64,000 bases of DNA from an uncultured beta proteobacterium (GCA_963792855.1 CAWBXZ010000001.1:260472-324471); one strand, 5' to 3'. Counted from the first letter of the stretch, positions 8,713-44,920 are shown. Notes: generated from the sequence alone by a model not told the origin. Numbers and translations are program-made.

Positions 8713-8736
8713 ACACAATGAATCGGAGTGATCGAC

Positions 8737-11542: not shown

Positions 11543-11595
11543 AGGGTAAAGGGCAGCACGGCGCCGGAACGGTTCAAGACAAAGGGGCATTGCAC

Positions 11596-12689: not shown

Positions 12690-12800
12690 GTGCAACCAAT
12701 GCCGTGCTGATATCCTGTGACTCCGGCGCCAACCGAATCACGCGTCCCCAGGTCGCTCATATCCTTGCGCGCCGATTGAACGAGGTTGCGAAATGCCCGC

Positions 12801-13946: not shown

Positions 13947-14121
13947 CAAGGAGAATCGGTATTACGGGTGTGCGGCGCACGTACATGGCCTGCTTCGCAC
14001 GCGTCGTCATGCGCTGTGTTCGTGCCGGCTGACACGGCACGGTTACCGGGATGGGTGTGGATGCCTGCATGCGCGGACCACAAGCCCTGATCAGAATCGT
14101 CAATGAAAGGAACAACACGAA

Positions 14122-14814: not shown

Positions 14815-14833
14815 TCCAGGCGTGTCAGTACAC

Positions 14834-20881: not shown

Positions 20882-21856
20882 ATGAAAACTGTTGTCACGT
20901 TATTCGCGTTGATGCTGCTGGCCACCCCGGTCAGCGCGCAGAACGAGTCGTACACTGCAGCGCAAACCCTGCTGCCGTGGGCTTATGCGTTGAACGACCC
21001 GGCTGTCGAGCACGCGCCGGACGATGGCAAGCCAAAGCATGTACCCGGCAGTACGCAGTCTTTCACGTTGGCCGAAATCCGGAATCTGTATGGCGTGCCC
21101 GACTGGCATCCGGACGATCATCCCGAGATGCCCGACATCGTTGCCCGCGGTCGCAACCCGGGTGTGTATGCCTGCGCGTACTGCCACCTTCCGAACGGGC
21201 AAGGCCGCCCCGAGAATACGAGTCTGGCTGGTCTCCCGGCCGAATACATCGAGCAGCAAATGGCCGATTACCGGGCGGGGTTACGCCGCAGCGCGGAACC
21301 GGACTCGCTCCCGTTGTCGGTGATGCACGCCATTGGCATGGCAGCGACTGAAAGTGAAGTAGCCGTAGCGGCGGCCTATTTTTCCAGCCTCACGCCGCGA
21401 CAATGGATCAGGGTTATCGAGACCGATACCGTTCCCACAACCCGGGTTGCCGGGTGGATGTTCATAGCGGCTGAGGACGGCGGGGTCGAACCCATAGGGC
21501 AGCGGATCATTGAAATGCCCGAGGATCTTGAGCGCACCGAGCTCCGTGACGCCAGATCCGGGTTTATCGCATACGTTCCGACCGGAAGCATTGAAAAAGG
21601 AAGGAAACTCGTCGAGTCGGGCGGGGGCGGCAGGACGCAGCCGTGCGGAGTCTGCCATGGTGATGATTTACGAGGACTTGGACCGGTGCCACCGCTCGCG
21701 GGACGTTCCCCCAGTTACCTCGTGCGCCAACTCTACGACCTGCAGACCGGCGTTCGCAAAGGCCGTTGGTCGCCGCTGATGCAAGCGGCAGTCGCAAATC
21801 TTTCCGTGGCGGATTTTGTCGCGCTAGCCGCGTATGCCGCATCACTCGAACCATGA
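20882..21856 (+). CDS. dihaem c-type cytochrome
   Basis: Signal peptide MKTVVTLFALMLLATPVSAQ. Two CxxCH motifs (CAYCH and CGVCH). Confidence 0.85.
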   Translation: MKTVVTLFALMLLATPVSAQNESYTAAQTLLPWAYALNDPAVEHAPDDGKPKHVPGSTQSFTLAEIRNLYGVPDWHPDDHPEMPDIVARGRNPGVYACAYCHLPNGQGRPENTSLAGLPAEYIEQQMADYRAGLRRSAEPDSLPLSVMHAIGMAATESEVAVAAAYFSSLTPRQWIRVIETDTVPTTRVAGWMFIAAEDGGVEPIGQRIIEMPEDLERTELRDARSGFIAYVPTGSIEKGRKLVESGGGGRTQPCGVCHGDDLRGLGPVPPLAGRSPSYLVRQLYDLQTGVRKGRWSPLMQAAVANLSVADFVALAAYAASLEP

Positions 21857-22064
21857 CCCGAACCAGGCCGTCAGTCGGCTGGTCGATGAACCGAGGGCCG
21901 GTGATTTGCGCCGGGAGCTTACCCCGTCATGATGCCGCTGTTTCCGAAGCCGACAACGTCTGATTCCCAACTTTTGCGGTGCCTGCAAGGTCAGGGATTC
22001 GGCCTGGTCGACACCATGATGCTTGCAGTGGTTTCATCAGCGCTACTGATGGGCATGATTCTGA

Positions 22065-23114
22065 TTACGAATTGATGGATCTCGCGGCGTTGCGCTTCGC
22101 TCGCCAGACGGCCGGGGGCGTGCCGCTCCAGCGGCGAAACGCTCGCGTAAAGGCACTCGCATCCGAGTAGCCGAGCGACGCTGCGAGTTGGCTCACCGTC
22201 ATTGCGGTATCTGCGAGCATCTGCGTGGCAATCTCGTAGCGGACGGCATCAACGAGCTTCTGGAAGCTGGTGCCGAAGGCGTTCAGGCGGCGATCCAGAG
22301 TGCGGCTGTGCATCGAGAAGAGGGCGGCAACCTGGTTCGACTTGCCGTTTCCCGTCAACAACGCCGTTCGCAGTACGCTCCGCACCTGCTCGGGAAAGTC
22401 CTCGCGATACCTCGCCTCCAGTGCGTCGATCTGTTTCTGCAGCATGCGCCGCAGTTCGGCATCTGCGCCAGCGAGCTCGCGGCGCAAACACGAGGTGGAG
22501 AACACCAGAGCATATTGCTCCGCGTCGAAGTGCAAGGGGGCTTCGAAGAAACGCTTGAACGGGGCGATATCTTCCGGTCTACGATGGGCGAACCGGGCCT
22601 CTACCGGTTTCCATCTCGGTCCGCACAGCCCGCGCATGATGTTCATCATCACCGCCACCGCCCCGTCACCGATCTGGTCGGTGGCCGGGACTTTTGGTTC
22701 ATAGATGTAATAGCTGAGTATTGCGATGCTGCCATCCACTACCAGATTCGGTGCAGCACCACTTACATGAAGATGCAGATAACGTACGAGGTTACGCAGC
22801 GCGGTTTCTACGTCAGGGGAGTGTTGCACGAGGAAGCCGACGAGGCCGAAAGACGAAAGGCGGCCCTGTTGACCGAGCAAGAGTCCGAAGTGCTTGCAGC
22901 CGGTTCGCGCCACGCAATGGCTGAGCAGACGGCCTCGGGCGGCGTACGAGACCCGGTTGTCGGGGTCGGCAAGGACTTCCAGGTTGAATCCCGCCTCGGC
23001 CAGCACCTTTGCCGGCTCTACCCCGAGGTTGGTGAGCACCGCCGGGATAGCTGCCGCGACACCGACGCGCACGGTCCCATTCGCCTGGCTGCGTTCCTTC
23101 TGTACCGGCTGCAT
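22065..23114 (-). CDS. AraC-family transcriptional regulator (AraC-binding-like N-domain + HTH)
   Basis: The C-terminal HTH reads VSQLAASLGYSDASAFTRAFRRWSGTPPAVWR. Close paralogue of the gene at 34026-35144. Confidence 0.9.
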   Translation of the reverse strand: MQPVQKERSQANGTVRVGVAAAIPAVLTNLGVEPAKVLAEAGFNLEVLADPDNRVSYAARGRLLSHCVARTGCKHFGLLLGQQGRLSSFGLVGFLVQHSPDVETALRNLVRYLHLHVSGAAPNLVVDGSIAILSYYIYEPKVPATDQIGDGAVAVMMNIMRGLCGPRWKPVEARFAHRRPEDIAPFKRFFEAPLHFDAEQYALVFSTSCLRRELAGADAELRRMLQKQIDALEARYREDFPEQVRSVLRTALLTGNGKSNQVAALFSMHSRTLDRRLNAFGTSFQKLVDAVRYEIATQMLADTAMTVSQLAASLGYSDASAFTRAFRRWSGTPPAVWRAKRNAARSINS

Positions 23115-23165
23115 TCGTTTAATGGCCCTTCGGTCTGATGCAGGTCAATAAGCATACATGCGCAT

Positions 23166-23200
23166 GTCCGAAATTGTCTATTGGGAGTCCGAAAAGGTTA
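23166..23200. promoter_or_regulatory. candidate AraC operator: two direct repeats with 21-bp phasing
   Basis: TCCGAAATTGTCTA (23166-23179) and TCCGAAAAGGTTAA (23187-23200). A near-identical arrangement lies next to the paralogous regulator at 35185-35219. Confidence 0.45.
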
Positions 23201-23452
23201 AGTCACGCAAAGATCTAACGGGTAAGATCATTAGCGATACCAGCGACGAAAGAATTTAGCAGTTAAGAAACAATAAAGTCTCCGCTGTGTCGCCCCATGT
23301 AAACGGCGTGTGGCATGCGGAAACTGTCACATCAAGGCTCGAATCAGGAACGGCACCCGTTGGTCCCTCGCAGATTGCCGACGATGCAACGGACAAGGGT
23401 GCGGTTCAAGGTTTTGCCGTCCTCGAATTATGACAAGAGTAAGGAGTAAATC

Positions 23453-24619
23453 ATGGCAACTGAAAAAAAAGTGTCCACGACGGTACCGCTGAACTGGAAA
23501 GAAGTGTGGTTCACCAATTGCCCCATGGTATCCGCCAATAACGTCGACCAGGAGCTGGGGTGGTGCCGTGAGGAGTTCAAAAAGATCGGCGTCGAATATG
23601 CCTACTTCCGTCACGCGCCAGAGAACAACTGGTATCCGCACTACGTCCACAACCTGGACAATCTGATCCGCTTCGGTGGACTGTATCCTCCCATTCACGT
23701 TCACGCCGACATCCGCCGCACTGTGCTGCTGGGGGCGACCTGGGTCTACGAAGGCGGGGTGATGCAGGTGCGCGCCCGTGACAAGATCTTTCGCGTGAAG
23801 GACCTGAAAGGCAAGAAGATCGGCATCACCAAGAGCCTGAACACTATCAAGAATGACTGGTGGCGCATCCAGGAGCACATGGGCATCGAAAATATTCTGA
23901 TGCTCAATGACATGACCATGAAGGATATCGAACTCGTGGAGTTCCCCTATCCGGATGACTGGTATGACAAGCCGGAGATGCTGACCCCGCCGATGAACAA
24001 CCCGTCGGAGTTGTGGATGCGCCGTGACCACAAACATGATTATGCTTTCCGTCCGTTGGAAAAAGCACTGCTCGACGGTACCGTCGATGCCATCTACAAC
24101 CAGATGGGACAACTAGGACAGCTTTCCGAGGCCACGGGCAAAATCAAGTCCATCTTCGACTTGTCCAGCCATCCTGACTGGACCGTGCAGGTGGCGAACA
24201 CCCCCGCCGTCATCACCTGCAGCGATGTGATGGCAAAGGAACACCCCGAGCTGGTCATCGCCTACATGAAGGCAATGATCAAGGTCGGGATCTGGGCTAA
24301 CGAGCACAAGCACGCCGCGGCGGTGATCCTCAACCGGCAGACCTTCTATCTGGACGCCGAGCACACGTACGAAGGCATCAAGCATGTCGACATGGTGCCA
24401 AGCCTGAATGCGCAGAACATGGAATGCATCAAGATCGGCAAGGATTTCATGCTGAGTCACGGCTACATGAAGAACGATTTCGATGTAGACAAGTGGGCTG
24501 CACCGGAATTTCTGGAGGAGGCAGCAACGCAAGTGCTCAAGGAGGAGTGGGAGAAAAGGAGCTGGAGCAAACTTCCTCAAGGAGGCGGGCTCGAGGCAGA
24601 AGGCACGCGGCTCGGGTAG
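23453..24619 (+). CDS. DszB-like (2'-hydroxybiphenyl-2-sulfinate desulfinase family) cytoplasmic SsuA/NMT1-fold protein
   Basis: AAGGAG RBS; no signal peptide. WFTNCPMVSANN, IRFGGLYPP and WAAPEFLEEA match remembered DszB motifs (YSNCPVPNAL with the Cys nucleophile, TRFGGEIPP, WAAPEFLNNS). Confidence 0.65.
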   Translation: MATEKKVSTTVPLNWKEVWFTNCPMVSANNVDQELGWCREEFKKIGVEYAYFRHAPENNWYPHYVHNLDNLIRFGGLYPPIHVHADIRRTVLLGATWVYEGGVMQVRARDKIFRVKDLKGKKIGITKSLNTIKNDWWRIQEHMGIENILMLNDMTMKDIELVEFPYPDDWYDKPEMLTPPMNNPSELWMRRDHKHDYAFRPLEKALLDGTVDAIYNQMGQLGQLSEATGKIKSIFDLSSHPDWTVQVANTPAVITCSDVMAKEHPELVIAYMKAMIKVGIWANEHKHAAAVILNRQTFYLDAEHTYEGIKHVDMVPSLNAQNMECIKIGKDFMLSHGYMKNDFDVDKWAAPEFLEEAATQVLKEEWEKRSWSKLPQGGGLEAEGTRLG

Positions 24620-24857
24620 CCGGAAGGCGCTCAATTGGTGGCCACGGAGTAAAAGCAGTTCACGCTGGGTGACGGTTGAAAACGATCAACCGCGGATCAT
24701 CGGTTGCCGATCGAAAGGAAGGGACAAAAAAACTTTCAGAGAGAAGGCCCGTGGAAGAGGCTTCACCGTGGCTGAATCACCTGCTGGCAGGCTTGTCGTG
24801 TTGTTCTCGTGCGCGTTGAATTTTGACCACGCCTTGGTCGCGTGGGAGAGGCAATAA

Positions 24858-25718
24858 ATGGGTATGCCCTACAAGATGAGTATGTCCTACAATTTGGACA
24901 CAATCATCAAGGTTGATGAGGACTTGTGTATCACCTGCGGAAACTGCGTCCGGACCTGCCCGGGCGGGTTGATTGAGAAAGCGGATTTCCCGGTTCCCAC
25001 CGAAAATTCATGGGAGCTTTGCATCGACTGCGGCCATTGTGTGGCCGTTTGCCCGACCGGGGCCATGCACCACCGCGCGATGGGGCCGGAAGATTGTGCG
25101 CCGGTCGATGTTCAATCGATGCCCCGCTGGGAAGAGGCCAGGCAATTCCTGATCTCGCGTCGTTCGACCCGTGTCTACATCAACAAACCCGTCGAGAAGG
25201 AGAAAATCCTGCAGGTGCTGGACGTCGCTCGCTTCGCGCCGAGCGGTGGAAACCGGCAGGGGGGCATCCTGCGCTGGGTCGTGGTCAGTGACCCCGCGCA
25301 AGTTCATAACGTGGCCCAGATGACCATCGACTGGATGAGAAGCGTCCGTGAATCGAATCCGGCGATGCACAAGGAGGCCAAGCTCGGGCTCTTCACGAGC
25401 GCGTGGGATGAGGGTCATGACCAGATAGCCCGTGGGGCGCCGTGTTTCATTCAAGCCTGGGCTCCCAATGACGAACGCACCGCACCCCAGGCGGCCACGA
25501 TCGCCCTGGCCTACGTTCAGCTGGCCGCGCACGCCCTCGGCCTCGGCAGTAGCTGGAGCGGCGGCATCAACACCGCCGCGCAGGCGCACCCTCCCTTGAT
25601 CGAGCTCCTGGGGCTGCCGGAAGGCACCGTGTCCTTCGGAACGATCCTGCTCGGGTACCCCGCCGAAGCGTTCATGCGGATCCCGGACCGCCATCTCCCC
25701 GAGGTGAGCTGGCGTTGA
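24858..25718 (+). CDS. 2x[4Fe-4S] ferredoxin domain fused to a nitroreductase-family flavoenzyme
   Basis: CITCGNCVRTCP and CIDCGHCVAVCP, followed by RRSTR.Y....V......L...RFAPSGGN and LGLGSSW (nitroreductase fold). Confidence 0.85.
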   Translation: MGMPYKMSMSYNLDTIIKVDEDLCITCGNCVRTCPGGLIEKADFPVPTENSWELCIDCGHCVAVCPTGAMHHRAMGPEDCAPVDVQSMPRWEEARQFLISRRSTRVYINKPVEKEKILQVLDVARFAPSGGNRQGGILRWVVVSDPAQVHNVAQMTIDWMRSVRESNPAMHKEAKLGLFTSAWDEGHDQIARGAPCFIQAWAPNDERTAPQAATIALAYVQLAAHALGLGSSWSGGINTAAQAHPPLIELLGLPEGTVSFGTILLGYPAEAFMRIPDRHLPEVSWR

Positions 25719-25734
25719 GCATCAGGGGAACACC

Positions 25735-26595
25735 ATGAGCGAAAACAGGCCCAAGACGCGCATGCAGCGGATGGGTTACCGTGCGCCGACCGATGCAGCG
25801 GAGCCCGATGAGCTCGTACTTGTCGAGTATGTCTCCGACGGGCGCATTGTCATCATCACCCTCAACCGGCCGCATGCCGACAACGCCATCACGACGGAAC
25901 TGGCGGCGCGGCTCATCGAAGTCCTCGAGACCATTGCAGCCCAATCCGCCGTGCGTGTCGCCATCATTACCGGATCCGGTGACCGAGCCTTCTCCGTCGG
26001 TGGCGACCTGTACCAGCGCAAGCAGATGACGAAGGAACAGTGGCTGCGCCAGCGCCAAGTCTTCGATCGCCTGCTCTACACGCTGCGCCAATTGCGCCGG
26101 CCGATTATTGCTGCCGTAAATGGAATGGCATATGGCGGTGGCTGCGAGATCGCCATCAGCACTGACTTCATCATCGCGTCTGATGATGCCGCCTTCGGCC
26201 AGCCCGAGGCGTTGGTCGGCTTGTCTGCCGGCGGCGGCTCGCCGGTCCTGCTTCCCCGGGTACTCCCGCCTGGTAAGGCGCTCCAGATGCTGATGACAGG
26301 AGAACCGATTACTGCGCAAGAGGCGCACCGGCTCGGCATGGTCAATGAAGTCCACCCGAAGGCCGCGCTGATGGAGGCGGTGCTGCGCATTGCGGAGACG
26401 ATCGCGAACAACTCACCGACCGCGGTTCAGGCAGTCAAGCGCGCTGTTCTCATGGGCGGGGGTGAGCCCATAGAGCAGGCCAGCGCGATCATGATGGAAG
26501 CGCATTGGCGCTCGGTGGTTCATCCGGATCGCCTCGAGGGCAGCCGTGCCTTCACCGAAGACCGGGAGCCGACTTTTCAGGACCCCGAGTTCTGA
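25735..26595 (+). CDS. enoyl-CoA hydratase/isomerase family protein
   Basis: ITLNRPHADNA, TGSGDRAFSVGGDL, VNGMAYGGGCEIA and a FTEDREPTF tail. Confidence 0.85.
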   Translation: MSENRPKTRMQRMGYRAPTDAAEPDELVLVEYVSDGRIVIITLNRPHADNAITTELAARLIEVLETIAAQSAVRVAIITGSGDRAFSVGGDLYQRKQMTKEQWLRQRQVFDRLLYTLRQLRRPIIAAVNGMAYGGGCEIAISTDFIIASDDAAFGQPEALVGLSAGGGSPVLLPRVLPPGKALQMLMTGEPITAQEAHRLGMVNEVHPKAALMEAVLRIAETIANNSPTAVQAVKRAVLMGGGEPIEQASAIMMEAHWRSVVHPDRLEGSRAFTEDREPTFQDPEF

Positions 26596-26720
26596 TGCGC
26601 AATCCTCCGTCCGGTCGCAACCAAGACCTCTATCTCCCGGCGCTGCAACGCGCTGAATTCAGCTTTGGTGGCAAAACCGTTGTCCGCCACCACCGTGCCG
26701 GGTGCGCGCAGCGAGGGTGC
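26596..26720 (-). mobile_element. possible DDE-transposase internal fragment (IS scar)
   Basis: Minus-strand translation APSLRAPGTVVADNGFATKAEFSALQRREIEVLVATGRRIA resembles the ..ADaGY.S..N...L...gI...vA.gR region around the second catalytic Asp of IS4/IS5-superfamily transposases. There is no complete ORF. Confidence 0.35.
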
Positions 26721-26919
26721 AATGCCATCAAGATCGGCAAGGATTTCATGCACAGTCATGGGCTACATCAAGAACGATTTCGATGTGGACAACTGGGCGG
26801 CGCCGGAATTCCTGGAGCAGGCAGCAACGGAAGTACTAAAGGAGGAATGGGAAAGAAGGAGCTGGAGCAAGCTCCCTCAGGGAGGCGGGCTCGAGGCCGA
26901 AGGCACGCGGCTCGGGTAG
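26721..26919 (+). pseudogene. 3'-terminal remnant of a second DszB-like gene (duplicate of 24423-24619)
   Basis: Roughly 85-90% nucleotide identity by eye to the last ~200 nt of the 23453-24619 gene, including the stop codon. It encodes ..IKIGKDFM.SHGY.KNDFDVD.WAAPEFLE.AAT.VLKEEWE.RSWSKLPQGGGLEAEGTRLG with an internal 1-nt indel and no 5' part. Confidence 0.8.
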
Positions 26920-27182
26920 TCGGGAAAACGCGCCGTCCAGCGCGGGTAGCGATGCAATGTCGGCTGCTTCTTCGTGGCGAAGGAGAGGCCTGTATGTAAT
27001 TGGCAGTCTTTATCTGGATGGCGTGGTTTGGATACTAGGAGTTCGCGATCCGGCGACGGATGCGTCCATGACAATAGTGAAAAATGGGAAGGCTGTCAGT
27101 CATCGTGATACAACACAAGGTTGCCGGAAACTCGCCATTGAGCGCTGAGTATCTGAGGTTCGGTCAGAACAGGATCTCGATC

Positions 27183-27989
27183 ATGAAGAACTTCAACAGC
27201 CTGGGCCGTATCGCTCTTTTTTGGGCTGCGCTCGCTTGTTTGACCGGTGCCGCGATCGCACAGGAGAACACCACGGCGGGCGACGCAGCTCAGGCGAACA
27301 ATCCACTCGCGAACTTTACCGCGTTCAACGTTCACAACTACTACATCGGCGATGTCACCGACACCGACAAGGATGGCAATCAGTTCTGGGCACGGTTCGC
27401 GAAGCCGTTCTCGATCGGGGAGACGAACTGGATTATGCGGGCGTCGCTGCCGGTCAATACTTTCCCGGTCGGACCAGCGCTCGACGACGAAACTGGGCTT
27501 GGGGATTTGAACATCTTCGCCGCCTATCTGATCGATACCGGGAATCCAACACGCAGTTTTGGCGTCGGGCCCCAGATCACTGCGCCGACCGCCAGCAGCG
27601 ACGCGTTGGGTAGCGAGAAGTGGTCCGCGGGAATTGTGAACACACTTTTCGACTTTGCCTCCCCGTTGTTCCAGTACGGGTACTTGCTGAGCTGGCAAGC
27701 AAGCGTTGCAGGCGATGACGATCGTGACGATGTGAACGTCGGTGCGTTCCAGCCGTTCGCCTTCTATCAGCTCGGTGGTGGGGCCTATCTGCGCTCGACC
27801 GGTGTCATGGTTTACGACTTCGAGCACGATACCTACAGTGTCCCGATCGGATTGGGTATTGGCCAGGTCATTCCGAGCAAAAACTTGATCTTTAACGTAT
27901 TCATCGAACCGCAAGTGTCCATCGCGGATGACGGCGCTGGCTGGCCCGGTTGGCAAATATTCATCGGCTTGAACACGCAGTTCAAGTGA
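27183..27989 (+). CDS. outer-membrane beta-barrel protein (putative transporter)
   Basis: Start moved to ATG 27183. Signal peptide [27 protein letters not shown]. Alternating-hydrophobicity strands and Gly/aromatic-rich turns. Family assignment is uncertain. Confidence 0.6.
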
Positions 27990-28028
27990 TGCAGTGATAT
28001 CGGACTTGACGCGGTTAGGGCGATTGGC

Positions 28029-28544
28029 ATGGCAGACGCAAGCAGCATTCCAGAGGGCAAGCAAACAGTCCCTGGGCTTTATGTGACGGCGAAAGAGGCC
28101 TACGAGAAGTGGAAGGCCGATCCCGGGAAAGTCATGATCCTTGACGTTCGCACGCCCGAGGAGTACCTGTTTGTCGGTCACCCGACCATGGCGTGGAAGA
28201 TTCCAGTTGCCGCCCAGACCTACGAGTGGGACGCCGGCAAAGGGCAATTCCCGATGAAGCCACTGCCCGATTTCGTATCCCGGGTGCAGGAAGCCGCCAG
28301 GCCCGACGACACGATCCTGGTTATGTGCCGGTCCGGTGGCCGCAGTGCGCTGGCGGTCAATGCGCTAGCCAAAGCCGGATTTGCGAATGTCTACAACGTC
28401 ATCGATGGCATGGAAGGCGACAAGGTGGACGACCCTGACAGCGTGTACCACGGCATGCGAATGAAGAACGGCTGGAAGAATTCGGGGTGTCCATGGACGG
28501 ACAGGCTGACGCCCGAGCAGATGCTCCTTCCCAAAGATCGGTAG
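28029..28544 (+). CDS. single-domain rhodanese-like sulfurtransferase
   Basis: ILDVRTPEEY..GH and the active-site loop MCRSGGRS. Confidence 0.85.
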   Translation: MADASSIPEGKQTVPGLYVTAKEAYEKWKADPGKVMILDVRTPEEYLFVGHPTMAWKIPVAAQTYEWDAGKGQFPMKPLPDFVSRVQEAARPDDTILVMCRSGGRSALAVNALAKAGFANVYNVIDGMEGDKVDDPDSVYHGMRMKNGWKNSGCPWTDRLTPEQMLLPKDR

Positions 28545-28564
28545 CCAGGTGGAAGCGACACGAC

Positions 28565-28891
28565 ATGCTCAAGAAACTGGTCCGCAGTTTTTTGGAGGCC
28601 TGGAAGTTGCCCCGGTGGCGCTGGGCCCTGTTGGTTGCAGTGTTGTCCGACGCCGTTGGGTTCGGTGTGATGCTATTGCCGCCGGTGCAGTGGCTGTTGG
28701 ACGGCGTCACCGCCGTGGTGCTGTTCATGGTGCTGGGTTTCCGCTGGTCGCTGTTGTCGGCGTTGGCCATCGAAGTCGTGCCTGGTCTGCAGTTGTTCCC
28801 GGCCTGGACCCTGGTTGTGATAGCCCTTGCGACGACGGAAACACGGGCATCTCCTCACGATACGAAAGCAGTGACCGGGAGGGATAGCTAA
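28565..28891 (+). CDS. small integral membrane protein, unknown function
   Basis: ATG 28565; 108 aa with three predicted TM segments (WALLVAVLSDAVGFGVMLL, VTAVVLFMVLGF, FPAWTLVVIALA). Confidence 0.5.
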   Translation: MLKKLVRSFLEAWKLPRWRWALLVAVLSDAVGFGVMLLPPVQWLLDGVTAVVLFMVLGFRWSLLSALAIEVVPGLQLFPAWTLVVIALATTETRASPHDTKAVTGRDS

Positions 28892-28956
28892 TTCAGATCG
28901 CCGTCGATCCCGCTGTATCGACCACAGTTCGCCATGGTGATCAGTAGCGTGACAAT

Positions 28957-28992
28957 AATGAATTGGCATGCTTGAATGAATTGGCATGCTTG
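28957..28992. repeat. perfect 18-bp tandem duplication AATGAATTGGCATGCTTG x2
   Basis: 28957-28974 and 28975-28992 are identical. Each unit contains the palindrome GCATGC. It lies upstream of the porin gene. Confidence 0.9.
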
Positions 28993-29268
28993 GCCTCGAT
29001 CAGTATGACTGTTGAGTTGCAGCATCAAACAATTAGTGCCGTGCTGTTCGCGTCACGAATAATAATAAGGGCGAAATTGCCCGCTCGATCCGGTGCAGAG
29101 AAGGTCATGACCGTACGGAAGCGATTGAATGACACGGCGGATGCTGCAGAACCAGGGCGATTGTCAACTGATCGTCGCAATTTGTGTTTATTCTCTGAAA
29201 GCATCGAAGCGGCACCCCCGAAGCAGGTTGTGGTGACTGCCAGAGAAAACGCCGACGATGCGTATCGG

Positions 29269-30552
29269 GTGCGCGCCATTTGCTACAAGGGATCGAGGCA
29301 GATACAGGCGTCGTTGATACTCATCCCCGCTCTGCTGCTATCGGCTTTCGCGGCAACGTCTGCGTTCGCGCAAACTTCCGAACAAGCTTCTGCTCCCCCG
29401 GACTGGATGACGCGTCCTACCCTCACCGGAGACTGGGGAGGCGCGCGCTCATCGCTCGCCGACAAGGGCGTGACTTTCGATCTCCGGCACACCTCTTTCT
29501 ATCAAGGACTCGTGGAAGGGACCGGGGACAACGGTTTCAAGTACGGGGGCAAGTTCGATGCCTTCATCAACCTCGACAGCGCCAAGATGGGCCTGTGGGA
29601 AGGCGGCGGATTTCGCTCACATTTCGAGTACAGCCACGGTGACGCACCGGCCAATCTCGGCGGCGCCATCTTTGCGGTCAATACCGCGCTGTATTGGCCG
29701 GTCGACACGCCGGAAGAGGTGGTGGCGACGTCGCTGTACTTCACCCAGAAAGTGGGTGAACGAAGCAGCATTGCGCTCGGCAAGTTCAATCCTGTTGACC
29801 TGCTCGCCGCCGACCCTTTCTACGGCGGGTGGGGCATTGACCGTTTCATGAACCTTATCCTCGCCGCGCCGCCAAGCGGTTTGATTCCGGTGGTGTTCAT
29901 GGGCGCGATCGGCTCCATCAAGACCGAGCCCGTTAACTGGACCATCATGGTCTTCGATCCCAATGACCGCACCAACGACTATTTGCCGGGCGATTTGTTC
30001 GAAGACGGCGTAAATATCTCCGTGAGCGGCGCGCACGTCACGACGCTCGCCGGGCGCAAGACCACCTATGTGGTCACGGGCCTCTACAGCACGGCAGAGG
30101 GGGTTGACTACTCGACATTGCCTCCCGGCTTTACGACGACAACACTGGATGACTCCTACAACGTCTCCTTTGAGTTCAAACATAACCTGCAGGAGAGTCC
30201 GGCGCAGCCGAATGCCAACTGGGGTTTCTACTTCAAGCTCGCCACCGCCGACGGCAACCCCAACTATATTCAGTCGTCGGTCATTGCCGGCATCGGTGGA
30301 AGGGCATTGTTCTTCGGACGGCCGCAAGACAATTTCGGTGTCGGCGCGTACCGCTACAACCTCAGTGATGTGCTTCAGAATTCACTGTCGCCCAATACCA
30401 GGTTCAAGGACGAATCCGCCTTTGAAGCCTATTACAACTACGCAGTGGCGCCATGGCTGTATCTCGGGCCGGACATCCAGTACATCAAACCGGCCTTTGG
30501 CAGTTATGAGAACGCCCTGGTCGCAACACTCAGGACTCAGATCCGTTTCTAG
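29269..30552 (+). CDS. OprB-family carbohydrate-selective porin
   Basis: Signal peptide ..QASLILIPALLLSAFAATSAFAQ, then LTGDWGGARSSLADKGVTFDL..TSFYQG, typical of OprB, and a C-terminal ..LRTQIRF. Start uncertain: GTG 29269 is proposed, because the track's upstream ATGs would add more than 50 aa before the signal peptide. Confidence 0.75.
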   Translation: MRAICYKGSRQIQASLILIPALLLSAFAATSAFAQTSEQASAPPDWMTRPTLTGDWGGARSSLADKGVTFDLRHTSFYQGLVEGTGDNGFKYGGKFDAFINLDSAKMGLWEGGGFRSHFEYSHGDAPANLGGAIFAVNTALYWPVDTPEEVVATSLYFTQKVGERSSIALGKFNPVDLLAADPFYGGWGIDRFMNLILAAPPSGLIPVVFMGAIGSIKTEPVNWTIMVFDPNDRTNDYLPGDLFEDGVNISVSGAHVTTLAGRKTTYVVTGLYSTAEGVDYSTLPPGFTTTTLDDSYNVSFEFKHNLQESPAQPNANWGFYFKLATADGNPNYIQSSVIAGIGGRALFFGRPQDNFGVGAYRYNLSDVLQNSLSPNTRFKDESAFEAYYNYAVAPWLYLGPDIQYIKPAFGSYENALVATLRTQIRF

Positions 30553-30670
30553 ACCATGATCATGATCCAAGCGATTCCCGATGGAAATGCCAAGGAGGTT
30601 CCGAATGTTTCAGATTCGACGAATTTCAAGTGAGCAGGGACAACACCGGTGCCAATGGCACAAACGCCTC

Positions 30671-31375
30671 ATGGCGGTGTTCACCATTGCTGCCGGGTGC
30701 CTGCTCAATGCAGGCATCGTAATGGCTGCGGAAACTGCCGTCAGCCAGGAAGAGATGAGGCGGTTTCCCGCAGCGTATATCTTCACGTTTCTGGTCCTGA
30801 TGCTCGGGCCGTTCAAGATCATCGGCCCGTTCACAAGAATGACGAAAGGCGCGGATGCAGCGCTGATGCGCAAGATCGCTCTTCTGGCGATACTTTTTGC
30901 GAGTATTACGCTTCTGGTCGCGGCCTTCATCGGCGAACTGGTCCTGGCGAACTACGGTATTCCGTTGCCCATGCTGGCGCTTGCCGCGGGCATCATCCTG
31001 TTTCTCGTGGCGCTGCAGAGCACCCTCAATCAATTTGCGCCGCTCACACCCGGCAACGAAGCAGGCACCCTCCCGCCACCGGATCTTAAAATGGCGTTGA
31101 CGCCGCTGGCGTTCCCGACAATCGTCACGCCGTATGGAATTGCCGCGCTGGTGGTGTTTCTCGCACTCAGCCCCGATCTTCAGGGCCGACTTGCCATCGG
31201 TGTCATTGTGTTGGTCATCATGCTGTTAAACTTGGCTGTGATGTTTGCAGCACGGCACGTCGGCCCGGTGCTCGGCATCTCGCTGGCGATTCTCGGGGCG
31301 GTGATCGGAATCATTCAAGTCGCGTTGGGACTCCAGATCATCAATAACTCGCTCCGGGCGCTGGGCATATTGTGA
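30671..31375 (+). CDS. MarC-family (UPF0056/NAAT) integral membrane protein
   Basis: Six TM segments. FTFLVLMLGPFKIIGPF and an ALTPLAFPTIVTPYGIAAL-like motif. Start uncertain (30581, 30671 or later). Confidence 0.7.
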   Translation: MAVFTIAAGCLLNAGIVMAAETAVSQEEMRRFPAAYIFTFLVLMLGPFKIIGPFTRMTKGADAALMRKIALLAILFASITLLVAAFIGELVLANYGIPLPMLALAAGIILFLVALQSTLNQFAPLTPGNEAGTLPPPDLKMALTPLAFPTIVTPYGIAALVVFLALSPDLQGRLAIGVIVLVIMLLNLAVMFAARHVGPVLGISLAILGAVIGIIQVALGLQIINNSLRALGIL

Positions 31376-31418
31376 AGCCGCGGCTTCACTGTTACATGAT
31401 GTGAGGGAGAACAGACCG

Positions 31419-31838
31419 ATGGCCGATCATCCCGCTAGCAGTCCAACACAAGAACTTCCGCTTGGCACCAGACTGTCGATTCAGAACACGCGTCTTGCGA
31501 TCGAACGCACTCTGATGGCCTGGGTCAGGACAGGCACATCGATGATCACGTTCGGCTTCAGCGTCTACAAGTTTTTTCAGATGGAGGTTACGAAGACGGG
31601 GATTACGCCGCACGCGCCCCTCATACAGAAGACACTCCTCGGGCCGCGCGAGTTTGGACTCGTATTGATCGGCATCGGCTTGCTGTCGATCCTGCTCGGC
31701 GCGTTCGAGCAGCGGCGGGACCTGAGAGCGTTACGCCAGGTGTATCCTGACCTGCCACAATCCGGTACGCGTCTGATAGCGCTGGTAGTCGGCGTACTCG
31801 GGATACTCGCGCTGGTAGGGGTGATCTACCGCTTCTAG
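31419..31838 (+). CDS. DUF202 (YidH-like) membrane protein
   Basis: GAGGGAGA lies 8 nt before ATG 31419. NTRLAIERTLMAWVRTGTSMITFG is the DUF202 signature. Confidence 0.75.
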   Translation: MADHPASSPTQELPLGTRLSIQNTRLAIERTLMAWVRTGTSMITFGFSVYKFFQMEVTKTGITPHAPLIQKTLLGPREFGLVLIGIGLLSILLGAFEQRRDLRALRQVYPDLPQSGTRLIALVVGVLGILALVGVIYRF

Positions 31839-35144: not shown

Positions 35145-35184
35145 GCCCCAAGTTGATTTAGCGCAAACAAGATAATGGCATCGG

Positions 35185-35219
35185 TCCGAAAATGTCTAGC
35201 CTATGTCTGAATTTGTCCA
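35185..35219. promoter_or_regulatory. candidate AraC operator: two direct repeats with 21-bp phasing
   Basis: TCCGAAAATGTCTA (35185-35198) and TCTGAATTTGTCCA (35206-35219). The first repeat matches 23166-23179 at 13 of 14 positions. Confidence 0.45.
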
Positions 35220-35315
35220 GTTGAGTTCCAAGCGCAGATATATATTGAGCCACTGACCGACCGTCACTGCGGACGGTGAAGTTAAAACTGAGGATTTCCA
35301 CAAAAGGGCCCGGCA

Positions 35316-36419: not shown

Positions 36420-36450
36420 CCAACTCAGTTTTAACTCGAGAGAAGAAAAC

Positions 36451-37985: not shown

Positions 37986-38043
37986 CAGGACGCGGGCGAT
38001 AGTATCCGGGGTTTATTCGAAAAATTTGTCTGGAGAAAGAAAT

Positions 38044-39741
38044 ATGAAAGTCATCATCGTAGGTGGCGTAGCCGGTGGCGCATCGTGCGCGGCGCGCTTG
38101 CGCAGGCTGGACGAGAATGCCGAGATACTGATGGTCGAGCGCGGGCCGTACGTCTCGTACGCGAATTGCGGGCTGCCTTACCATGTCGGCGGTGTGATCG
38201 AACAGGAATCGAGTCTGCTGGTGGCGGACGAAAACACATTCCGTTCGCAATTCGCCATTGATGTAAGGACGAACTGCGAATGCGTCAATATTTCGCCAGA
38301 CAAGAAGACCGTCGACCTGCGCGATGTAAAGACCGGCAAGGTCACGACCGAGTCCTACGACAAGCTGGTGCTCTCGCCCGGTGCGGAATCGATCCGCCCA
38401 CCACTGCCCGGCATTGATCTGCCGGGCATCTTTCCGGTGCGCACTGTGCCCGACGCGAGAACGATTCGGCAGTGGATCGAGAAGGGTTCGGCGTTCCTGT
38501 CGGGCATGCATCGCTACTCGGGTTTCCAGACGGTGCGGCCGAAGACACGTGCCGTCGTCATTGGCGGCGGTTTCATCGGCCTGGAAACAGCGGAGAACCT
38601 CATCCACCGCGGCTTCGACGTGACGCTGGTCGAAATGGGTGATCAGATTCTGGGGCCGATCGACCCCGAGATGGCGCGCATCGCCGAAGGCTATCTTGAA
38701 CGTCACGGTCTACGGCTGGCGCTCAATGACGGTGTATCCGGCTTCGAACAGGGCGAGAACAACACGCTGAAGGTGCTCACGAAATCGGGCAAGGTGCATC
38801 CGGCCGACATCGTAATCCTCGCCATCGGTGTGCGTCCGGATACCGCGCTGGCGAAAAAAGCCGGCCTGGAGATCGGCAAACGCGGCGGCATCCGCGTCGA
38901 TGATCACATGCGCACCAGCAAGCCGGACATCTTCGCGGTCGGTGATGTGGTCGAGGTCAAGGACAGCGTGACCGGCGAATGGGGTCTGGTCGCGTTGGCC
39001 GGCCCGGCCAACCGGCAGGGACGCATCGCAGCGGACGTCATTGCCGGGCGCGACTCGCGCTTCCGCGGCACCCAGGGCACGGCGATCATCGGCTTCTTTG
39101 GCGGTGTCGCGGCCTGGACCGGCGTCAGCGAGAAAGCGCTCAAGCGCAACGGTGACACCGACTACGAAAAAATCTACCTGTACCCGAACTCGCACGCCGG
39201 CTATTACCCGGGCGCGAAGCCGATCGCGATGAAGGTGCTGTTCCGCAAATCGAACGGCAAACTGCTCGGCGCGCAGGCACTGGGTGAGGACATGGTGGAC
39301 AAGCGCGTCAGCGCGCTGGCCATGGCGCTGCAGATGGGCGCGACGATCTATGATCTGGAGGAAGCCGAGCTGTGTTACGCACCGCAATTCGGCAGCGCGA
39401 AGGACCCGGTGAATTTCGCGGGGATGATCGCAGCGGATGTCCTGCGCGGTGATATGCCACTCAGCCACTGGGACAGTGAGGAGCAGGGCTTCCTGCTCGA
39501 TGTGCGCTCGCCGGTGGAACTGGCGGTGGAGAGCGAGCCGAACGCGGTCAATATTCCGCTCGGAGAATTGCGCGCGCGGCTCAGCGAACTGCCGCGCGAC
39601 AAGGAGATTCTGGTCATCTGCCGTTCCGGGCAGCGTGCCTACTACGCGACACGGATGCTGTTGCAAAAAGGCTTCAAGGCCAGGACGCTGTCCGGCGGCA
39701 TGTTGTCGCGCACGCACGCGACGACGTTCTGGACGAGTTGA
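38044..39741 (+). CDS. CoA-disulfide/persulfide-reductase-type FAD oxidoreductase with C-terminal rhodanese domain
   Basis: MKVIIVGGVAGGASCAARLRR is the FAD motif and SYANCGLPY carries the redox Cys. The C-terminal rhodanese has the CRSGQRA loop. 565 aa. Confidence 0.85.
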   Translation: MKVIIVGGVAGGASCAARLRRLDENAEILMVERGPYVSYANCGLPYHVGGVIEQESSLLVADENTFRSQFAIDVRTNCECVNISPDKKTVDLRDVKTGKVTTESYDKLVLSPGAESIRPPLPGIDLPGIFPVRTVPDARTIRQWIEKGSAFLSGMHRYSGFQTVRPKTRAVVIGGGFIGLETAENLIHRGFDVTLVEMGDQILGPIDPEMARIAEGYLERHGLRLALNDGVSGFEQGENNTLKVLTKSGKVHPADIVILAIGVRPDTALAKKAGLEIGKRGGIRVDDHMRTSKPDIFAVGDVVEVKDSVTGEWGLVALAGPANRQGRIAADVIAGRDSRFRGTQGTAIIGFFGGVAAWTGVSEKALKRNGDTDYEKIYLYPNSHAGYYPGAKPIAMKVLFRKSNGKLLGAQALGEDMVDKRVSALAMALQMGATIYDLEEAELCYAPQFGSAKDPVNFAGMIAADVLRGDMPLSHWDSEEQGFLLDVRSPVELAVESEPNAVNIPLGELRARLSELPRDKEILVICRSGQRAYYATRMLLQKGFKARTLSGGMLSRTHATTFWTS

Positions 39742-40638: not shown

Positions 40639-40723
40639 TGCGCCGCGCACACACGTAACAACGTTCTGGACACGCTGATCGATACAACGCGAGTTTCATT
40701 ATTCCCGATTGCAGGAGGTACCC

Positions 40724-44823: not shown

Positions 44824-44920
44824 CGAACAACGGAGCTGGTACGGCGTGGCGTTTCGTCACGCCGTACCGGAAATTCCTCGAAGAACAGCAAACAACCCCA
44901 GTACAACGGGATATCAGATC

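What the first reader, a model, noticed from the sequence alone, without database searches (positions are those of the whole stretch)
23453..26595. DszB-like desulfinase operon without DszA/DszC, partnered with a ferredoxin::nitroreductase fusion and a crotonase
The first gene encodes a signal-less SsuA/NMT1-fold protein. Its N-terminal TNCP motif, RFGG motif and C-terminal WAAPEFL match, from memory, the catalytic Cys27 region, Arg70 region and C-terminus of Rhodococcus DszB, a C-S-cleaving sulfinate desulfinase. No flavin monooxygenases of the 4S pathway are present. Instead it is followed by a 2x[4Fe-4S]-nitroreductase fusion and an enoyl-CoA hydratase. I do not know this combination from any described pathway. 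The region looks lower in GC than its surroundings. It could be a sulfinate or other C-X hydrolase acting on a CoA-activated or redox-activated substrate.
Basis: partly seen in the sequence, partly recalled or inferred. Interest (0 to 1): 0.65.

Follow-up and report, generated by a model that had tools for sequence, protein, structure and literature searches.

The report
Conserved DszB-like enzyme in sulfur operon
The gene encodes a cytoplasmic relative of the oil-desulfurizing enzyme DszB that keeps DszB's catalytic residues; it belongs to an unstudied, very highly conserved clade found in many bacterial phyla and in archaeon-labelled MAGs, usually next to sulfur-transfer enzymes rather than the classic desulfurization genes.

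Summary
Gene 1 (23453-24619) is a leaderless NMT1/SsuA-fold protein. Its only significant match among solved structures is DszB, by sequence (E 7e-12) and by fold (Foldseek E 1e-19). The residues matching DszB Cys27, His60, Arg70 and Gly73 (C23, H63, R73, G76) are invariant across the superfamily. A 2x[4Fe-4S]-nitroreductase fusion and a crotonase with both catalytic Glu follow it. No DszA or DszC is present.

Gene 1 belongs to a very strongly conserved clade. Relatives occur in 483 species genomes, and the best 80 are 84-94% identical across more than 10 phyla, although synonymous sites are far more diverged (39-65% identity).

The usual partners are a rhodanese (about 56 of 83 loci), a CoA-disulfide-reductase-rhodanese fusion (Npsr-type persulfide reductase; about 35), and SulP and SBF anion transporters. 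The nitroreductase-crotonase pair is an optional sub-module in about 27% of loci, but that crotonase subfamily almost always sits beside a DszB-like gene.

In this window a cassette (AraC, DszB-like, Fdx-NTR, ECH) appears to have displaced a resident copy and left a 3' remnant.

My best reading is a desulfinase-type C-S hydrolase working in a sulfinate/thiosulfonate and sulfane-sulfur pathway. The substrate is unknown, and I found no literature on this clade.

The parts
22065..23114 (-). AraC-family regulator (Arabinose_bd + HTH_18), divergent from gene 1
   Evidence: Pfam. The nearest NCBIfam model is QhpR, below its cutoff. A divergent AraC gene sits next to the DszB-like gene in 10-11 other loci, for example Chelatococcus L001/L047. 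A paralogue lies at 34107-35093.
23115..23452 (.). Low-GC (0.485) divergent intergenic region with the RBS of gene 1
   Evidence: AAGGAG lies 8 nt before the ATG, and an in-frame TAA lies at 23447-23449. GC. No Rfam match.
23453..24619 (+). DszB-family cytoplasmic enzyme (388 aa). Catalytic-site equivalents are C23, H63, R73, G75/G76. It has a clade-specific C-terminal helix and tail (about residues 351-388).
   Evidence: Sequence match to DszB: PDB phmmer, 2DE2, E 7e-12. Structure: AF2 model with pLDDT 86.3 and pTM 0.85, and DszB is the top Foldseek hit at E 1e-19. Conservation: the site residues are invariant in alignments A1 and A2. Distribution: more than 3000 90%-identity clusters and 483 species genomes.
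24858..25718 (+). 2x[4Fe-4S] ferredoxin domain fused to a nitroreductase-family flavoprotein domain (accessory module)
   Evidence: Pfam Fer4 families plus Nitroreductase. The motifs CITCGNCVRTCP and CIDCGHCVAVCP are read from the translation. Orthologues at 60-85% identity lie directly beside the DszB-like gene or the ECH gene in 22-26 of 82 loci.
25735..26595 (+). Crotonase / enoyl-CoA hydratase with both catalytic glutamates (GGGCE138, GQPE158) (accessory module)
   Evidence: Pfam ECH_1, 199.6 bits. Alignment to solved hydratases. Orthologues are 78-83% identical across phyla. This subfamily is nearly always next to a DszB-like gene.
26692..26923 (+). Frameshifted 3' remnant of a second DszB-like gene (pseudogene fragment)
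   Evidence: Direct repeat of 24427-24623 at 89-92% nt identity. tblastn match to residues 318-401. An extra G causes a frameshift. It is positionally equivalent, and 84.7% identical, to the 3' end of the single DszB-like gene in the syntenic contig L065.
28029..28544 (+). Single-domain rhodanese sulfurtransferase with active-site loop CRSGGRS; the most frequent partner of the DszB-like gene
   Evidence: Pfam Rhodanese, 57.5 bits. Orthologues are present in 56-58 of 82-83 loci, usually adjacent and on the same strand.
38041..39741 (+). CoA-disulfide-reductase-rhodanese fusion (Npsr-type persulfide reductase), distal copy of a core partner
   Evidence: 76% identical to the cluster representative. 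TIGR03385 scores 445 bits, below its 578.8 cutoff. The motifs SYANCGLPY and C-terminal ICRSGQR are read from the translation. Present in 35-41 of 82 loci.

Best explanation
Shown: Gene 1 is a cytoplasmic enzyme of the DszB (2'-hydroxybiphenyl-2-sulfinate desulfinase) family. It has the complete DszB oxyanion-binding catalytic site (Cys23, His63, Arg73, Gly76).

Shown: It belongs to an uncharacterised and exceptionally conserved clade that is not part of a 4S (DszA/DszC) pathway. This clade travels in a horizontally spread, co-directional operon with a rhodanese, an Npsr-type CoA-persulfide reductase-rhodanese fusion, and SulP and SBF anion transporters.

Inferred mechanism: An anionic organosulfur compound at the sulfinate or thiosulfonate oxidation level is taken up or formed in the cell. 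Rhodanese strips any sulfane sulfur (R-SO2-S- gives R-SO2- plus an enzyme persulfide). The Npsr-type enzyme reduces that persulfide to H2S using NAD(P)H. The DszB-like enzyme holds the -SO2- group with His63, Arg73 and Gly76 and uses Cys23 to cleave the C-S bond hydrolytically, releasing sulfite. One of the transporters may import the substrate or export sulfite or thiosulfate.

The Fdx-nitroreductase and crotonase pair present in this window is a facultative sub-module. It probably processes the carbon skeleton as a CoA thioester, or makes the sulfinate. It arrived here together with this gene copy on a cassette.
For: Family and catalytic site:
- DszB is the only significant match among solved structures by sequence and the top match by fold.
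- C23, H63, R73, G75 and G76 are invariant in 27 representatives at 24-62% identity and in 39 further homologues.
- The literature names Cys27, His60, Arg70 and Gly73 as the DszB active site, where His60 and Arg70 anchor the sulfinate (PMC12168087).
- A sister subfamily at about 42% identity sits in a cluster like DszA + DszC + flavin reductase (L084). This suggests that desulfinase chemistry is the family theme.

Cytoplasmic location:
- No leader is possible.

Sulfur context:
- Rhodanese occurs in about 56 of 83 loci, CoADR-Rhd in 35-41, SulP in 33-39 and SBF in 26, mostly on the same strand and adjacent.
- The link to CoADR-Rhd or rhodanese persists at 64-72% identity, in a MAG labelled Methanomicrobiales (L085) and on a Rhizobium plasmid (L167).
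- Active-site Cys residues of the rhodanese and of the Npsr-type protein are intact.
- Npsr enzymes reduce persulfides and polysulfides to H2S (PMC7969121).
- Sulfurtransferases interconvert sulfinates and thiosulfonates (PMC7545470).

Strong selection:
- Amino-acid identity is 85-94%, while identity at four-fold degenerate sites is 0.39-0.65.
Against: - No substrate is identified, and no enzyme that generates a sulfinate (dioxygenase or monooxygenase) is conserved in the neighbourhood.
- DszB chemistry is ipso-protonation of an aryl carbon. Common biological sulfinates (hypotaurine, cysteine sulfinate, 3-sulfinopropionate) are aliphatic, and known enzymes desulfinate them by other mechanisms.
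- Many host lineages appear, from their names, to be anaerobes, in which sulfinates are not obviously formed.
- Rhodanese plus the Npsr-type enzyme could work on thiosulfate or polysulfide without any desulfinase.
- The near-total conservation of the sequence is more than an ordinary catabolic hydrolase needs, which hints at extra constraints such as a complex or a self-modification.
- The neighbourhoods also contain many general stress and ion-homeostasis genes, so operon logic alone is weak.
- The 80 loci were chosen as the most similar, which inflates the apparent conservation.
Confidence: 0.45

Rival explanations
1. Gene 1 is a sulfane-sulfur or sulfite-handling enzyme rather than a C-S hydrolase. 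Cys23 receives a persulfide from the adjacent rhodanese, and the His/Arg/Gly pocket binds sulfite or thiosulfate (the DszB product site). The protein would then make or split thiosulfate or S-sulfonates, or act as a sulfur relay or donor. The very high conservation would reflect protein-protein docking or a self-modifying (single-turnover) role, as in the structurally related Thi5.
For: - The tightest and most frequent partners are sulfurtransferases.
- The accessory carbon-handling modules are interchangeable, as expected if the core deals with a common inorganic sulfur species.
- Thi5, a suicide enzyme of the same fold, is among the top structural matches.
- Conservation is extreme across the whole length of the protein.
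Against: - Rhodaneses already catalyse sulfite/thiosulfate exchange on their own.
- The invariant site is shared with subfamilies located in 4S-like organosulfur clusters, which argues for shared C-S chemistry.
- There is no precedent for this activity in the DszB family.
Confidence: 0.2
2. Gene 1 is a non-catalytic cytoplasmic ligand-binding protein. It would be a binding-protein fold reused as a sensor or regulator, for example gating the neighbouring SulP/STAS transporter, like the NrtA-like regulatory domains of the Cmp and Nrt transporters.
For: - The fold is that of type II binding proteins. The CmpC regulatory domain (9UAK, 9UAI) and SsuA, TauA and NrtA appear among the Foldseek matches.
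- SulP/STAS transporters are frequent neighbours.
Against: - DszB, an enzyme, is by far the closest relative by both sequence and fold.
- The invariant residues are exactly the catalytic ones, including the Cys.
- SulP is present in fewer than half of the loci, whereas rhodanese is more frequent.
Confidence: 0.1
3. Gene 1 has DszB-like chemistry on a non-sulfur oxyanion, for example protodecarboxylation of an aromatic or vinylic carboxylate (possibly after CoA-dependent steps by the crotonase). The sulfur genes would be neighbours only by co-transfer.
For: - Protodesulfination and protodecarboxylation are mechanistically analogous (my own knowledge).
- Carbon-metabolising accessory genes recur: ECH, Zn-ADH, a glycyl radical enzyme, and a 2-hydroxyacyl-CoA-dehydratase-like pair.
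Against: Rhodanese and the Npsr-type gene are linked far more consistently than any carbon-metabolism gene, across phyla and over a 64-94% identity range.
Confidence: 0.1
4. Gene 1 is an ordinary periplasmic SsuA/TauA-type sulfonate-binding protein whose leader was lost through a miscalled start codon.
For: Public annotations call the homologues 'ABC transporter substrate-binding protein'. Pfam NMT1 gives a weak hit of 24.9 bits.
Against: - An in-frame stop lies two codons upstream of a start with a good RBS.
- Where homologues have N-terminal extensions, these are Lys/Ala-rich and not hydrophobic.
- The SsuA_fam score is far below its cutoff.
- No SsuA or TauA chain is found in the PDB by sequence, even at E up to 10.
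- No ABC permease or ATPase genes are adjacent.
Confidence: 0.01

Closest known systems
DszB / TdsB / BdsB, 2'-hydroxybiphenyl-2-sulfinate desulfinase of the 4S dibenzothiophene pathway (PDB 2DE2, 2DE3)
   Same: - Same fold, and the top match by both sequence and structure.
- Cytoplasmic, with no leader.
- Cys27, His60, Arg70 and Gly73 equivalents are all present and invariant.
- The RFGG and WAAPEFL motifs are shared.
   Different: - Only about 20-25% identical.
- No DszA, DszC or DszD partners; instead rhodanese, an Npsr-type reductase, and SulP and SBF transporters.
- An extra C-terminal helix and tail of about 30 residues.
- Found in many phyla, including lineages that are anaerobes judging by their names, and in archaeon-labelled MAGs.
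- Far more conserved than a niche xenobiotic enzyme would be.
- The substrate is unlikely to be a hydroxybiphenyl sulfinate.
SsuA / TauA / NMT1-THI5 family (periplasmic sulfonate-binding proteins; the HMP synthase Thi5)
   Same: Type II binding-protein fold. Weak Pfam NMT1 and TIGR01728 matches. These proteins are structural neighbours ranked after DszB.
   Different: No signal peptide, no ABC transporter partners, and scores below the family cutoffs. It carries the DszB catalytic residues, which these proteins lack.
Npsr / CoADR-RHD with rhodanese systems for persulfide and polysulfide reduction (Shewanella, Bacillus anthracis, Archaeoglobus; the CstR-type regulons of Enterococcus)
   Same: The operon partners here have the same architecture: a CoADR domain with the SxxNCGLPY cysteine plus a C-terminal rhodanese cysteine, accompanied by stand-alone rhodaneses.
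   Different: I found no description of such a system with a DszB-like protein. The Npsr-type protein here scores below the CoADR equivalog cutoffs.
3-sulfinopropionyl-CoA desulfinase (AcdDPN7) and cysteine sulfinate desulfinase (CsdA)
   Same: They release sulfite from a sulfinate. The former acts on a CoA thioester, which would fit a crotonase partner (my own knowledge).
   Different: Their folds and cofactors are unrelated (acyl-CoA dehydrogenase fold with FAD; PLP enzyme). No homologue of either is in this operon.

Membership tests
DszB desulfinase family | Type II binding-protein (NMT1-like) fold that is closer to DszB than to binding proteins | tested here: met
   phmmer against the PDB finds only DszB as significant (E 7e-12). 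An AF2 model (pLDDT 86.3) gives DszB 2DE3/2DE2 as the top Foldseek hits (E 1e-19 to 3e-18, TM 0.64-0.74), ahead of SsuA and Thi5.
DszB desulfinase family | Active-site Cys27, His60, Arg70 and Gly73 (PMC12168087) | tested here: met
   C23, H63, R73 and G76 align with them. They are invariant in A1 (27 sequences at 24-62% identity) and in A2 (39 sequences).
DszB desulfinase family | Cytoplasmic, with no signal peptide | tested here: met
   The maximal ORF starts MATEKKVSTT. An in-frame TAA lies two codons upstream, and there is an AAGGAG RBS.
DszB desulfinase family | Encoded with DszA-type (luciferase-like) and DszC-type (acyl-CoA-dehydrogenase-like) monooxygenases (4S operon) | tested here: not met
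   None is conserved in the 83 surveyed loci, and none was found among the window ORFs examined. By contrast, a sister subfamily locus, L084, has Bac_luciferase + Acyl-CoA_dh + FMN_red.
DszB desulfinase family | Hydrolyses an aryl sulfinate to the arene plus sulfite | not testable with these tools
   Needs an enzyme assay.
SsuA/TauA periplasmic sulfonate-binding proteins | Reaches the family model cutoff (TIGR01728) | tested here: not met
   55.7 bits against a cutoff of 163.5.
SsuA/TauA periplasmic sulfonate-binding proteins | Signal peptide or lipobox, and adjacent ABC permease and ATPase genes | tested here: not met
   No leader is possible. No ABC transporter genes are conserved beside the gene in the window or in the 82 loci.
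Crotonase / enoyl-CoA hydratase (gene 3) | ECH_1 fold with the two catalytic glutamates of hydratases | tested here: met
   Pfam ECH_1 at 199.6 bits. GGGCE and GQPE align with the catalytic Glu of solved hydratases. No NCBIfam equivalog cutoff is reached.
Ferredoxin-nitroreductase fusion (gene 2) | Two CxxCxxCxxxCP motifs plus a nitroreductase FMN domain | tested here: met
   Both motifs are read in the translation. Pfam Fer4 families and Nitroreductase at 96.7 bits. No characterised equivalog was found.
Npsr / CoADR-RHD persulfide reductase (38041-39741) | CoADR domain with the redox Cys in an xxNCGLPY motif, plus a C-terminal rhodanese domain with its Cys | tested here: inconclusive
   Both motifs are present (SYANCGLPY and ICRSGQR), and Pfam finds Pyr_redox_2 plus Rhodanese in the orthologue. 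However, TIGR03385 scores 445 bits, below its 578.8 cutoff. Activity was not tested.

The most novel reading that the evidence does not exclude
The DszB-like clade is the catalytic core of an unrecognised, horizontally mobile pathway, widespread in soil, sediment and marine bacteria and in archaeon-labelled MAGs. The pathway would mineralise or detoxify a common sulfinate- or thiosulfonate-level sulfur compound without oxygen. Sulfite would leave through the desulfinase, and sulfane sulfur would leave through rhodanese and the Npsr-type reductase. Lineage-specific radical or low-potential modules (Fdx-nitroreductase with crotonase, a glycyl radical enzyme, a 2-hydroxyacyl-CoA-dehydratase-like enzyme) would feed it. 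This would be a new branch of the organosulfur cycle and the first physiological role for DszB-type chemistry outside fuel desulfurization.
Probability: 0.3. Interest if true: 0.8.

Novelty: new variant of a known kind. Interest (0 to 1): 0.62.

Why it matters
DszB is known almost only as the slow final step of dibenzothiophene desulfurization in a few actinomycetes. This analysis shows that its closest-knit relatives form a clade annotated everywhere as 'ABC transporter substrate-binding protein'.

This clade is present in at least 483 species-level genomes from more than ten phyla. It is under very strong purifying selection, and it is wired to sulfurtransferases and a persulfide reductase instead of oxygenases.

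If it is a desulfinase, there is a common natural sulfinate or thiosulfonate substrate and a pathway that nobody has described. If it is not, the DszB active site supports a second kind of sulfur chemistry.

Either way, thousands of database annotations are wrong. Cultured, tractable hosts make the question directly testable: Chelatococcus asaccharovorans DSM 6462, Kaistia dalseonensis, Rhizobium leguminosarum ATCC 14479 (on a plasmid), and Nitrospira sp. NS4.

Tried and rejected
- Start-codon miscall or lost leader: rejected, because of the in-frame stop and the RBS.
- Fusions of the DszB-like protein with rhodanese (P0091, P0357), which might have shown physical coupling: they look like frameshift artefacts of noisy assemblies, with garbled linker sequence and fragmented neighbouring genes.
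- Recent horizontal transfer alone as the explanation for 85-94% identity: rejected, because identity at four-fold degenerate sites is only 0.39-0.65.
- Riboswitch or other known RNA element that might reveal a ligand: none in the window 21800-29000 at E up to 1, and none in 8 loci at gathering thresholds.
- Literature: searches for DszB + rhodanese, 'DszB-like', desulfinase + glycyl radical, desulfinase + metagenome, CoA persulfide reductase + rhodanese + operon, and CoADR + rhodanese + SulP found nothing on this clade.
- A conserved neighbour that generates sulfinates (dioxygenase or monooxygenase): none found among neighbour clusters present in at least 3 loci.
- The 2-hydroxyacyl-CoA-dehydratase-like pair with activases seen on the Rhizobium plasmid: absent from all other 170 loci and from the window, apart from one weak 26%-identity hit, so it is a rare accessory.
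- Several frequent 'neighbour clusters' (c4, c5, c10 and others) were opposite-strand shadow ORFs of real genes and were discarded.
- Assigning the remnant to a donor lineage by nucleotide identity was inconclusive. Synteny with L065 settled its positional origin.


Full report
**1. What is in the sequence**

The region holds three co-directional ORFs.
- Gene 1 is 23453-24619 (388 aa).
- Gene 2 is 24858-25718 (286 aa).
- Gene 3 is 25735-26595 (286 aa).
- A divergent AraC-family regulator lies upstream at 22065-23114.

Gene 1 gives only weak family matches. Pfam NMT1 scores 24.9 bits, and TIGR01728 SsuA_fam scores 55.7 bits against a cutoff of 163.5. Gene 2 carries two complete CxxCxxCxxxCP motifs followed by a nitroreductase domain (96.7 bits). 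Gene 3 is a crotonase (ECH_1, 199.6 bits), and both catalytic glutamates of true hydratases are in place (GGGCE, GQPE).

The start of gene 1 is secure. AAGGAG lies 8 nt upstream, and an in-frame TAA lies two codons before the ATG. A lost signal peptide is therefore impossible.

**2. The DszB resemblance is real**

- A phmmer search against every PDB sequence returns DszB as the only significant hit (2DE2, E 7e-12), aligned nearly end to end.
- TNCP aligns with SNCP (Cys27), H63 with His60, RFGG with RFGG (Arg70/Gly73), and WAAPEFL with WAAPEFL.
- An AlphaFold2 model (pLDDT 86.3, pTM 0.85) finds DszB 2DE3/2DE2 as the top Foldseek matches (E about 1e-19, TM 0.64-0.74). SsuA and Thi5 rank behind it.
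- The literature gives Cys27, His60, Arg70 and Gly73 as the DszB active site, with His60 and Arg70 anchoring the sulfinate (PMC12168087).
- In an alignment of 27 representatives of 50%-identity clusters (24-62% identical to gene 1), the only invariant positions are C23, H63, R73, G75, G76, G120, L149 and P251.
- The same residues are invariant in a second set of 39 homologues.

It does not group with binding proteins, it has not lost a leader, and its Cys is conserved.

**3. The clade is very highly conserved and widespread**
- The word-indexed search gave more than 3000 90%-identity clusters. The best 120 are 77-92% identical and come from Chloroflexota, Alphaproteobacteria (Chelatococcus, Aliisedimentitalea), Cyanobacteria (Synechococcus), Thermoleophilia and Bacteroidota (Lutimonas). 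All are annotated 'ABC transporter substrate-binding protein'.
- A scan of one genome per GTDB species found relatives in 483 species. The best 80 are 84-94% identical. They carry labels from Nitrospiraceae, Chloroflexia, Actinomycetota, delta-, gamma- and alphaproteobacteria, Acidobacteriota, Planctomycetota, Calditrichia and Ignavibacteria, and from MAGs labelled Methanoregulaceae and Methanosarcinales.
- Four-fold degenerate sites are only 39-65% identical. The amino-acid conservation therefore reflects strong purifying selection and is not merely recent transfer. The patchy, cross-phylum distribution still implies horizontal spread.
- An exhaustive HMMER search of 1.84 billion representatives found 964 50%-identity clusters related at E up to 1e-3. 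The DszB superfamily is thus modest in diversity but has this one very populous clade.

**4. Genomic context**

I called ORFs in 82 loci plus the window, clustered them all-against-all, and cross-checked with tblastn. Counts are loci out of 83 (or out of 82 where only tblastn was used).

| Neighbour | Loci | Notes |
|---|---|---|
| Single-domain rhodanese (loop CRSGGRS) | 56-58 | Usually directly adjacent |
| CoA-disulfide-reductase-rhodanese fusion | 35-41 | Median pairwise identity 71% |
| SulP/STAS transporter | 33-39 | |
| SBF-family transporter | 26 | |
| Fdx-nitroreductase | 22-26 | |
| Crotonase | 22-23 | Median pairwise identity 81% |
| LuxR/MalT-type regulator | 26 | Mainly Chloroflexia-labelled MAGs |
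| AraC regulator | 10-11 | |

- The typical order is regulator, DszB-like, (Fdx-NTR, ECH), Rhd, CoADR-Rhd, SBF, SulP.
- From the other side, I scanned metagenome contigs with the crotonase. Its close relatives (76-91% identical) carry a DszB-like gene in 20 of 23 loci with at least 2 kb of upstream sequence, and in 25 of 30 loci of at least 5 kb. This crotonase subfamily is a dedicated partner.
- The pair is nevertheless facultative, and other accessory sets replace or join it:
  - An uncharacterised glycyl radical enzyme with its activase, a PfkA-like kinase and sometimes MetK, in about 9 loci.
  - A Zn-ADH with a cyclase in the MAG labelled Methanomicrobiales.
  - Two 2-hydroxyacyl-CoA-dehydratase-family proteins and two activases flanking the DszB-like gene on a conjugative Rhizobium leguminosarum plasmid. 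There an SBF transporter, two rhodaneses and SulP follow. That arrangement was unique in my sample.
- A sister subfamily at about 42% identity lies in a cluster with a luciferase-like monooxygenase, an acyl-CoA-dehydrogenase-like protein and a flavin reductase, which is a 4S-like context. This supports desulfinase chemistry as the ancestral theme. It also underlines that the window's clade has left that context.

**5. The window itself**
- The rhodanese partner is at 28029-28544.
- An Npsr-type CoADR-Rhd gene is at 38041-39741, and both of its active-site cysteines are intact.
- The glycyl radical enzyme module is at 42351-47931.
- A frameshifted 3' fragment of a second DszB-like gene lies just after the crotonase (26692-26923). 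It is 89-92% identical in nucleotides to the end of gene 1.
- Contig L065 (a Burkholderiales MAG) is collinear with the window's flanks at 77-87% nucleotide identity. It has only a single DszB-like gene between the cytochrome c gene and the OprB porin gene.
- The window's remnant matches the 3' end of that gene, including bases past the stop codon, at 84.7%.
- I infer that an incoming AraC, DszB-like, Fdx-NTR, ECH cassette displaced the resident copy. This fits the low GC of gene 1 (0.554, in the lowest 3.3% of windows) and of its upstream spacer (0.485). Genes 2 and 3 are not low in GC.

**6. How it most likely works**

Shown:
- It is a cytoplasmic DszB-family protein with the full oxyanion-binding and catalytic site.
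- It is tightly linked in operons to sulfurtransferases, an Npsr-type reductase and anion transporters.

From established knowledge:
- Npsr enzymes reduce persulfides and polysulfides to H2S through a rhodanese cysteine and bound CoA (PMC7969121).
- Sulfurtransferases interconvert sulfinates and thiosulfonates, and the sulfane sulfur of thiosulfonates is reducible to H2S (PMC7545470).

Inferred:
- The core handles a compound at the sulfinate or thiosulfonate oxidation level.
- Rhodanese removes the sulfane sulfur, and the Npsr-type enzyme reduces it.
- The DszB-like enzyme cleaves the C-SO2- bond to release sulfite.
- The transporters move the substrate or the products.
- The variable radical or CoA-dependent modules deal with the lineage-specific carbon skeleton.

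I give this explanation about 0.45. The main rival, at 0.2, is that the conserved Cys and oxyanion pocket act on inorganic sulfur (persulfide with sulfite or thiosulfate) or act as a sulfur relay. That would better explain the interchangeable carbon modules and the extreme conservation. Lesser rivals are a non-catalytic sensor role (0.1) and non-sulfur protodecarboxylase-type chemistry (0.1). The idea of a mis-started periplasmic binding protein is refuted.

**7. Comparison with known systems, and novelty**
- By fold and active site, gene 1 is a member of the DszB family.
- It is not a member of the 4S pathway, because that feature was tested and not met.
- It is not an SsuA/TauA binding protein.
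- I found no publication on this clade or on a DszB-like, rhodanese, Npsr-type operon.
- I rate it a new variant of a known kind: a known enzyme family in a new, conserved system with an unknown substrate.

**8. Caveats**
- The 80 genome loci were selected as the most similar, which inflates the identity statistics.
- ORF calling was mechanical.
- Flanks were limited to 8 kb.
- The archaeal labels on MAGs were not verified.
- No enzymatic evidence exists.

Noticed in passing
window 26692-26923: A frameshifted 3' remnant of a second DszB-like gene lies after the crotonase. Contig L065 (a Burkholderiales MAG) is syntenic with the window's flanks and has a single DszB-like gene at this position. 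The AraC, DszB-like, Fdx-NTR, ECH cassette therefore seems to have displaced a resident copy.
   Followed up: yes
window 42351-48090: A glycyl radical enzyme module lies here. It consists of a GRE with no NCBIfam equivalog (best matches are HypD and HpsG models, below cutoff), which appears frameshifted near 43985-43991 at a CCCC run; a PfkA-like kinase (44720-46078); a GRE activase closest to HpsH (46075-47031); a two-domain rhodanese (47179-47931); and a 45-residue MetK remnant (47956-48090). The same module lies next to the DszB-like gene in about 9 other loci, for example L003 and L010.
   Followed up: partly
window 34107-41968: A second AraC paralogue (34107-35093, minus strand) is divergent from a run of genes: patatin-like phospholipase, acetoacetate decarboxylase, SDR, CoADR-rhodanese (Npsr-type) and glutamate dehydrogenase. 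The first three are collinear with L065. The meaning of the acetoacetate decarboxylase, SDR and patatin set next to a persulfide reductase is unexplained.
   Followed up: partly
homologues P0088, P0025, P0119 (N-termini); window gene 1 residues about 351-388: Some orthologues carry a 60-100-residue Lys/Ala-rich N-terminal extension with a conserved motif (L..IAELVA.KPHL.DELGE). The whole clade has a C-terminal helix plus a conserved tail (WSKLP.GGGLEAEGTRLG) that DszB and the distant subfamilies lack. The AF2 model predicts the tail to be disordered. It may be a docking or targeting signal.
   Followed up: no
L167 (Rhizobium leguminosarum ATCC 14479 plasmid NZ_CP030763.1, locus 6484-15795): On a conjugative plasmid, a 66%-identical DszB-like gene sits between two 2-hydroxyacyl-CoA-dehydratase-family genes and two activase genes. 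An SBF transporter, two rhodaneses and SulP follow. This is a third kind of radical or low-potential partner, in a cultured and tractable host.
   Followed up: partly
window 28963-31838; L065 2847-5389; L169 6347-10469: An OprB-family porin, a MarC-family membrane protein and a DUF202 protein recur next to the DszB-like gene in the window, in L065, and in a locus whose DszB-like protein is 67% identical to gene 1 (L169). Stress-type membrane proteins (DUF6325, DUF308, SHOCT, TMEM175, a Na/H exchanger) and GH15- or MGH1-like glycosidases also recur in other loci.
   Followed up: partly
L008 13249-14430; L083 3508-10194: Some genomes carry paralogues. L008 has a second DszB-like gene (68% identity) after the Fdx-NTR and ECH genes, the same position as the window's remnant. 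The Opitutaceae locus L083 has about five NMT1/DszB-like genes interleaved with ABC transporter genes, followed by a nitroreductase.
   Followed up: no
DszB-like genes in L001-L082: GC content of the DszB-like gene stays within 0.53-0.64 while its flanks range from 0.45 to 0.72. GC3 is high (0.68-0.86) in all hosts examined. The gene's composition is largely uncoupled from that of the host.
   Followed up: partly
L060, L062, L068, L085: MAGs labelled Methanoregulaceae, Methanosarcinales and Methanomicrobiales encode 72-87%-identical copies. If the binning is correct, the clade crosses the boundary between the domains. The taxonomy of these contigs was not checked.
   Followed up: no
window 27084-27989: A 301-residue ORF between the remnant and the rhodanese has no Pfam match. 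It has a hydrophobic N-terminal stretch that looks like a signal peptide, and its C-terminus ends in F-K. It may be an outer-membrane protein. A 70%-identical relative lies next to the DszB-like gene in L056.
   Followed up: no
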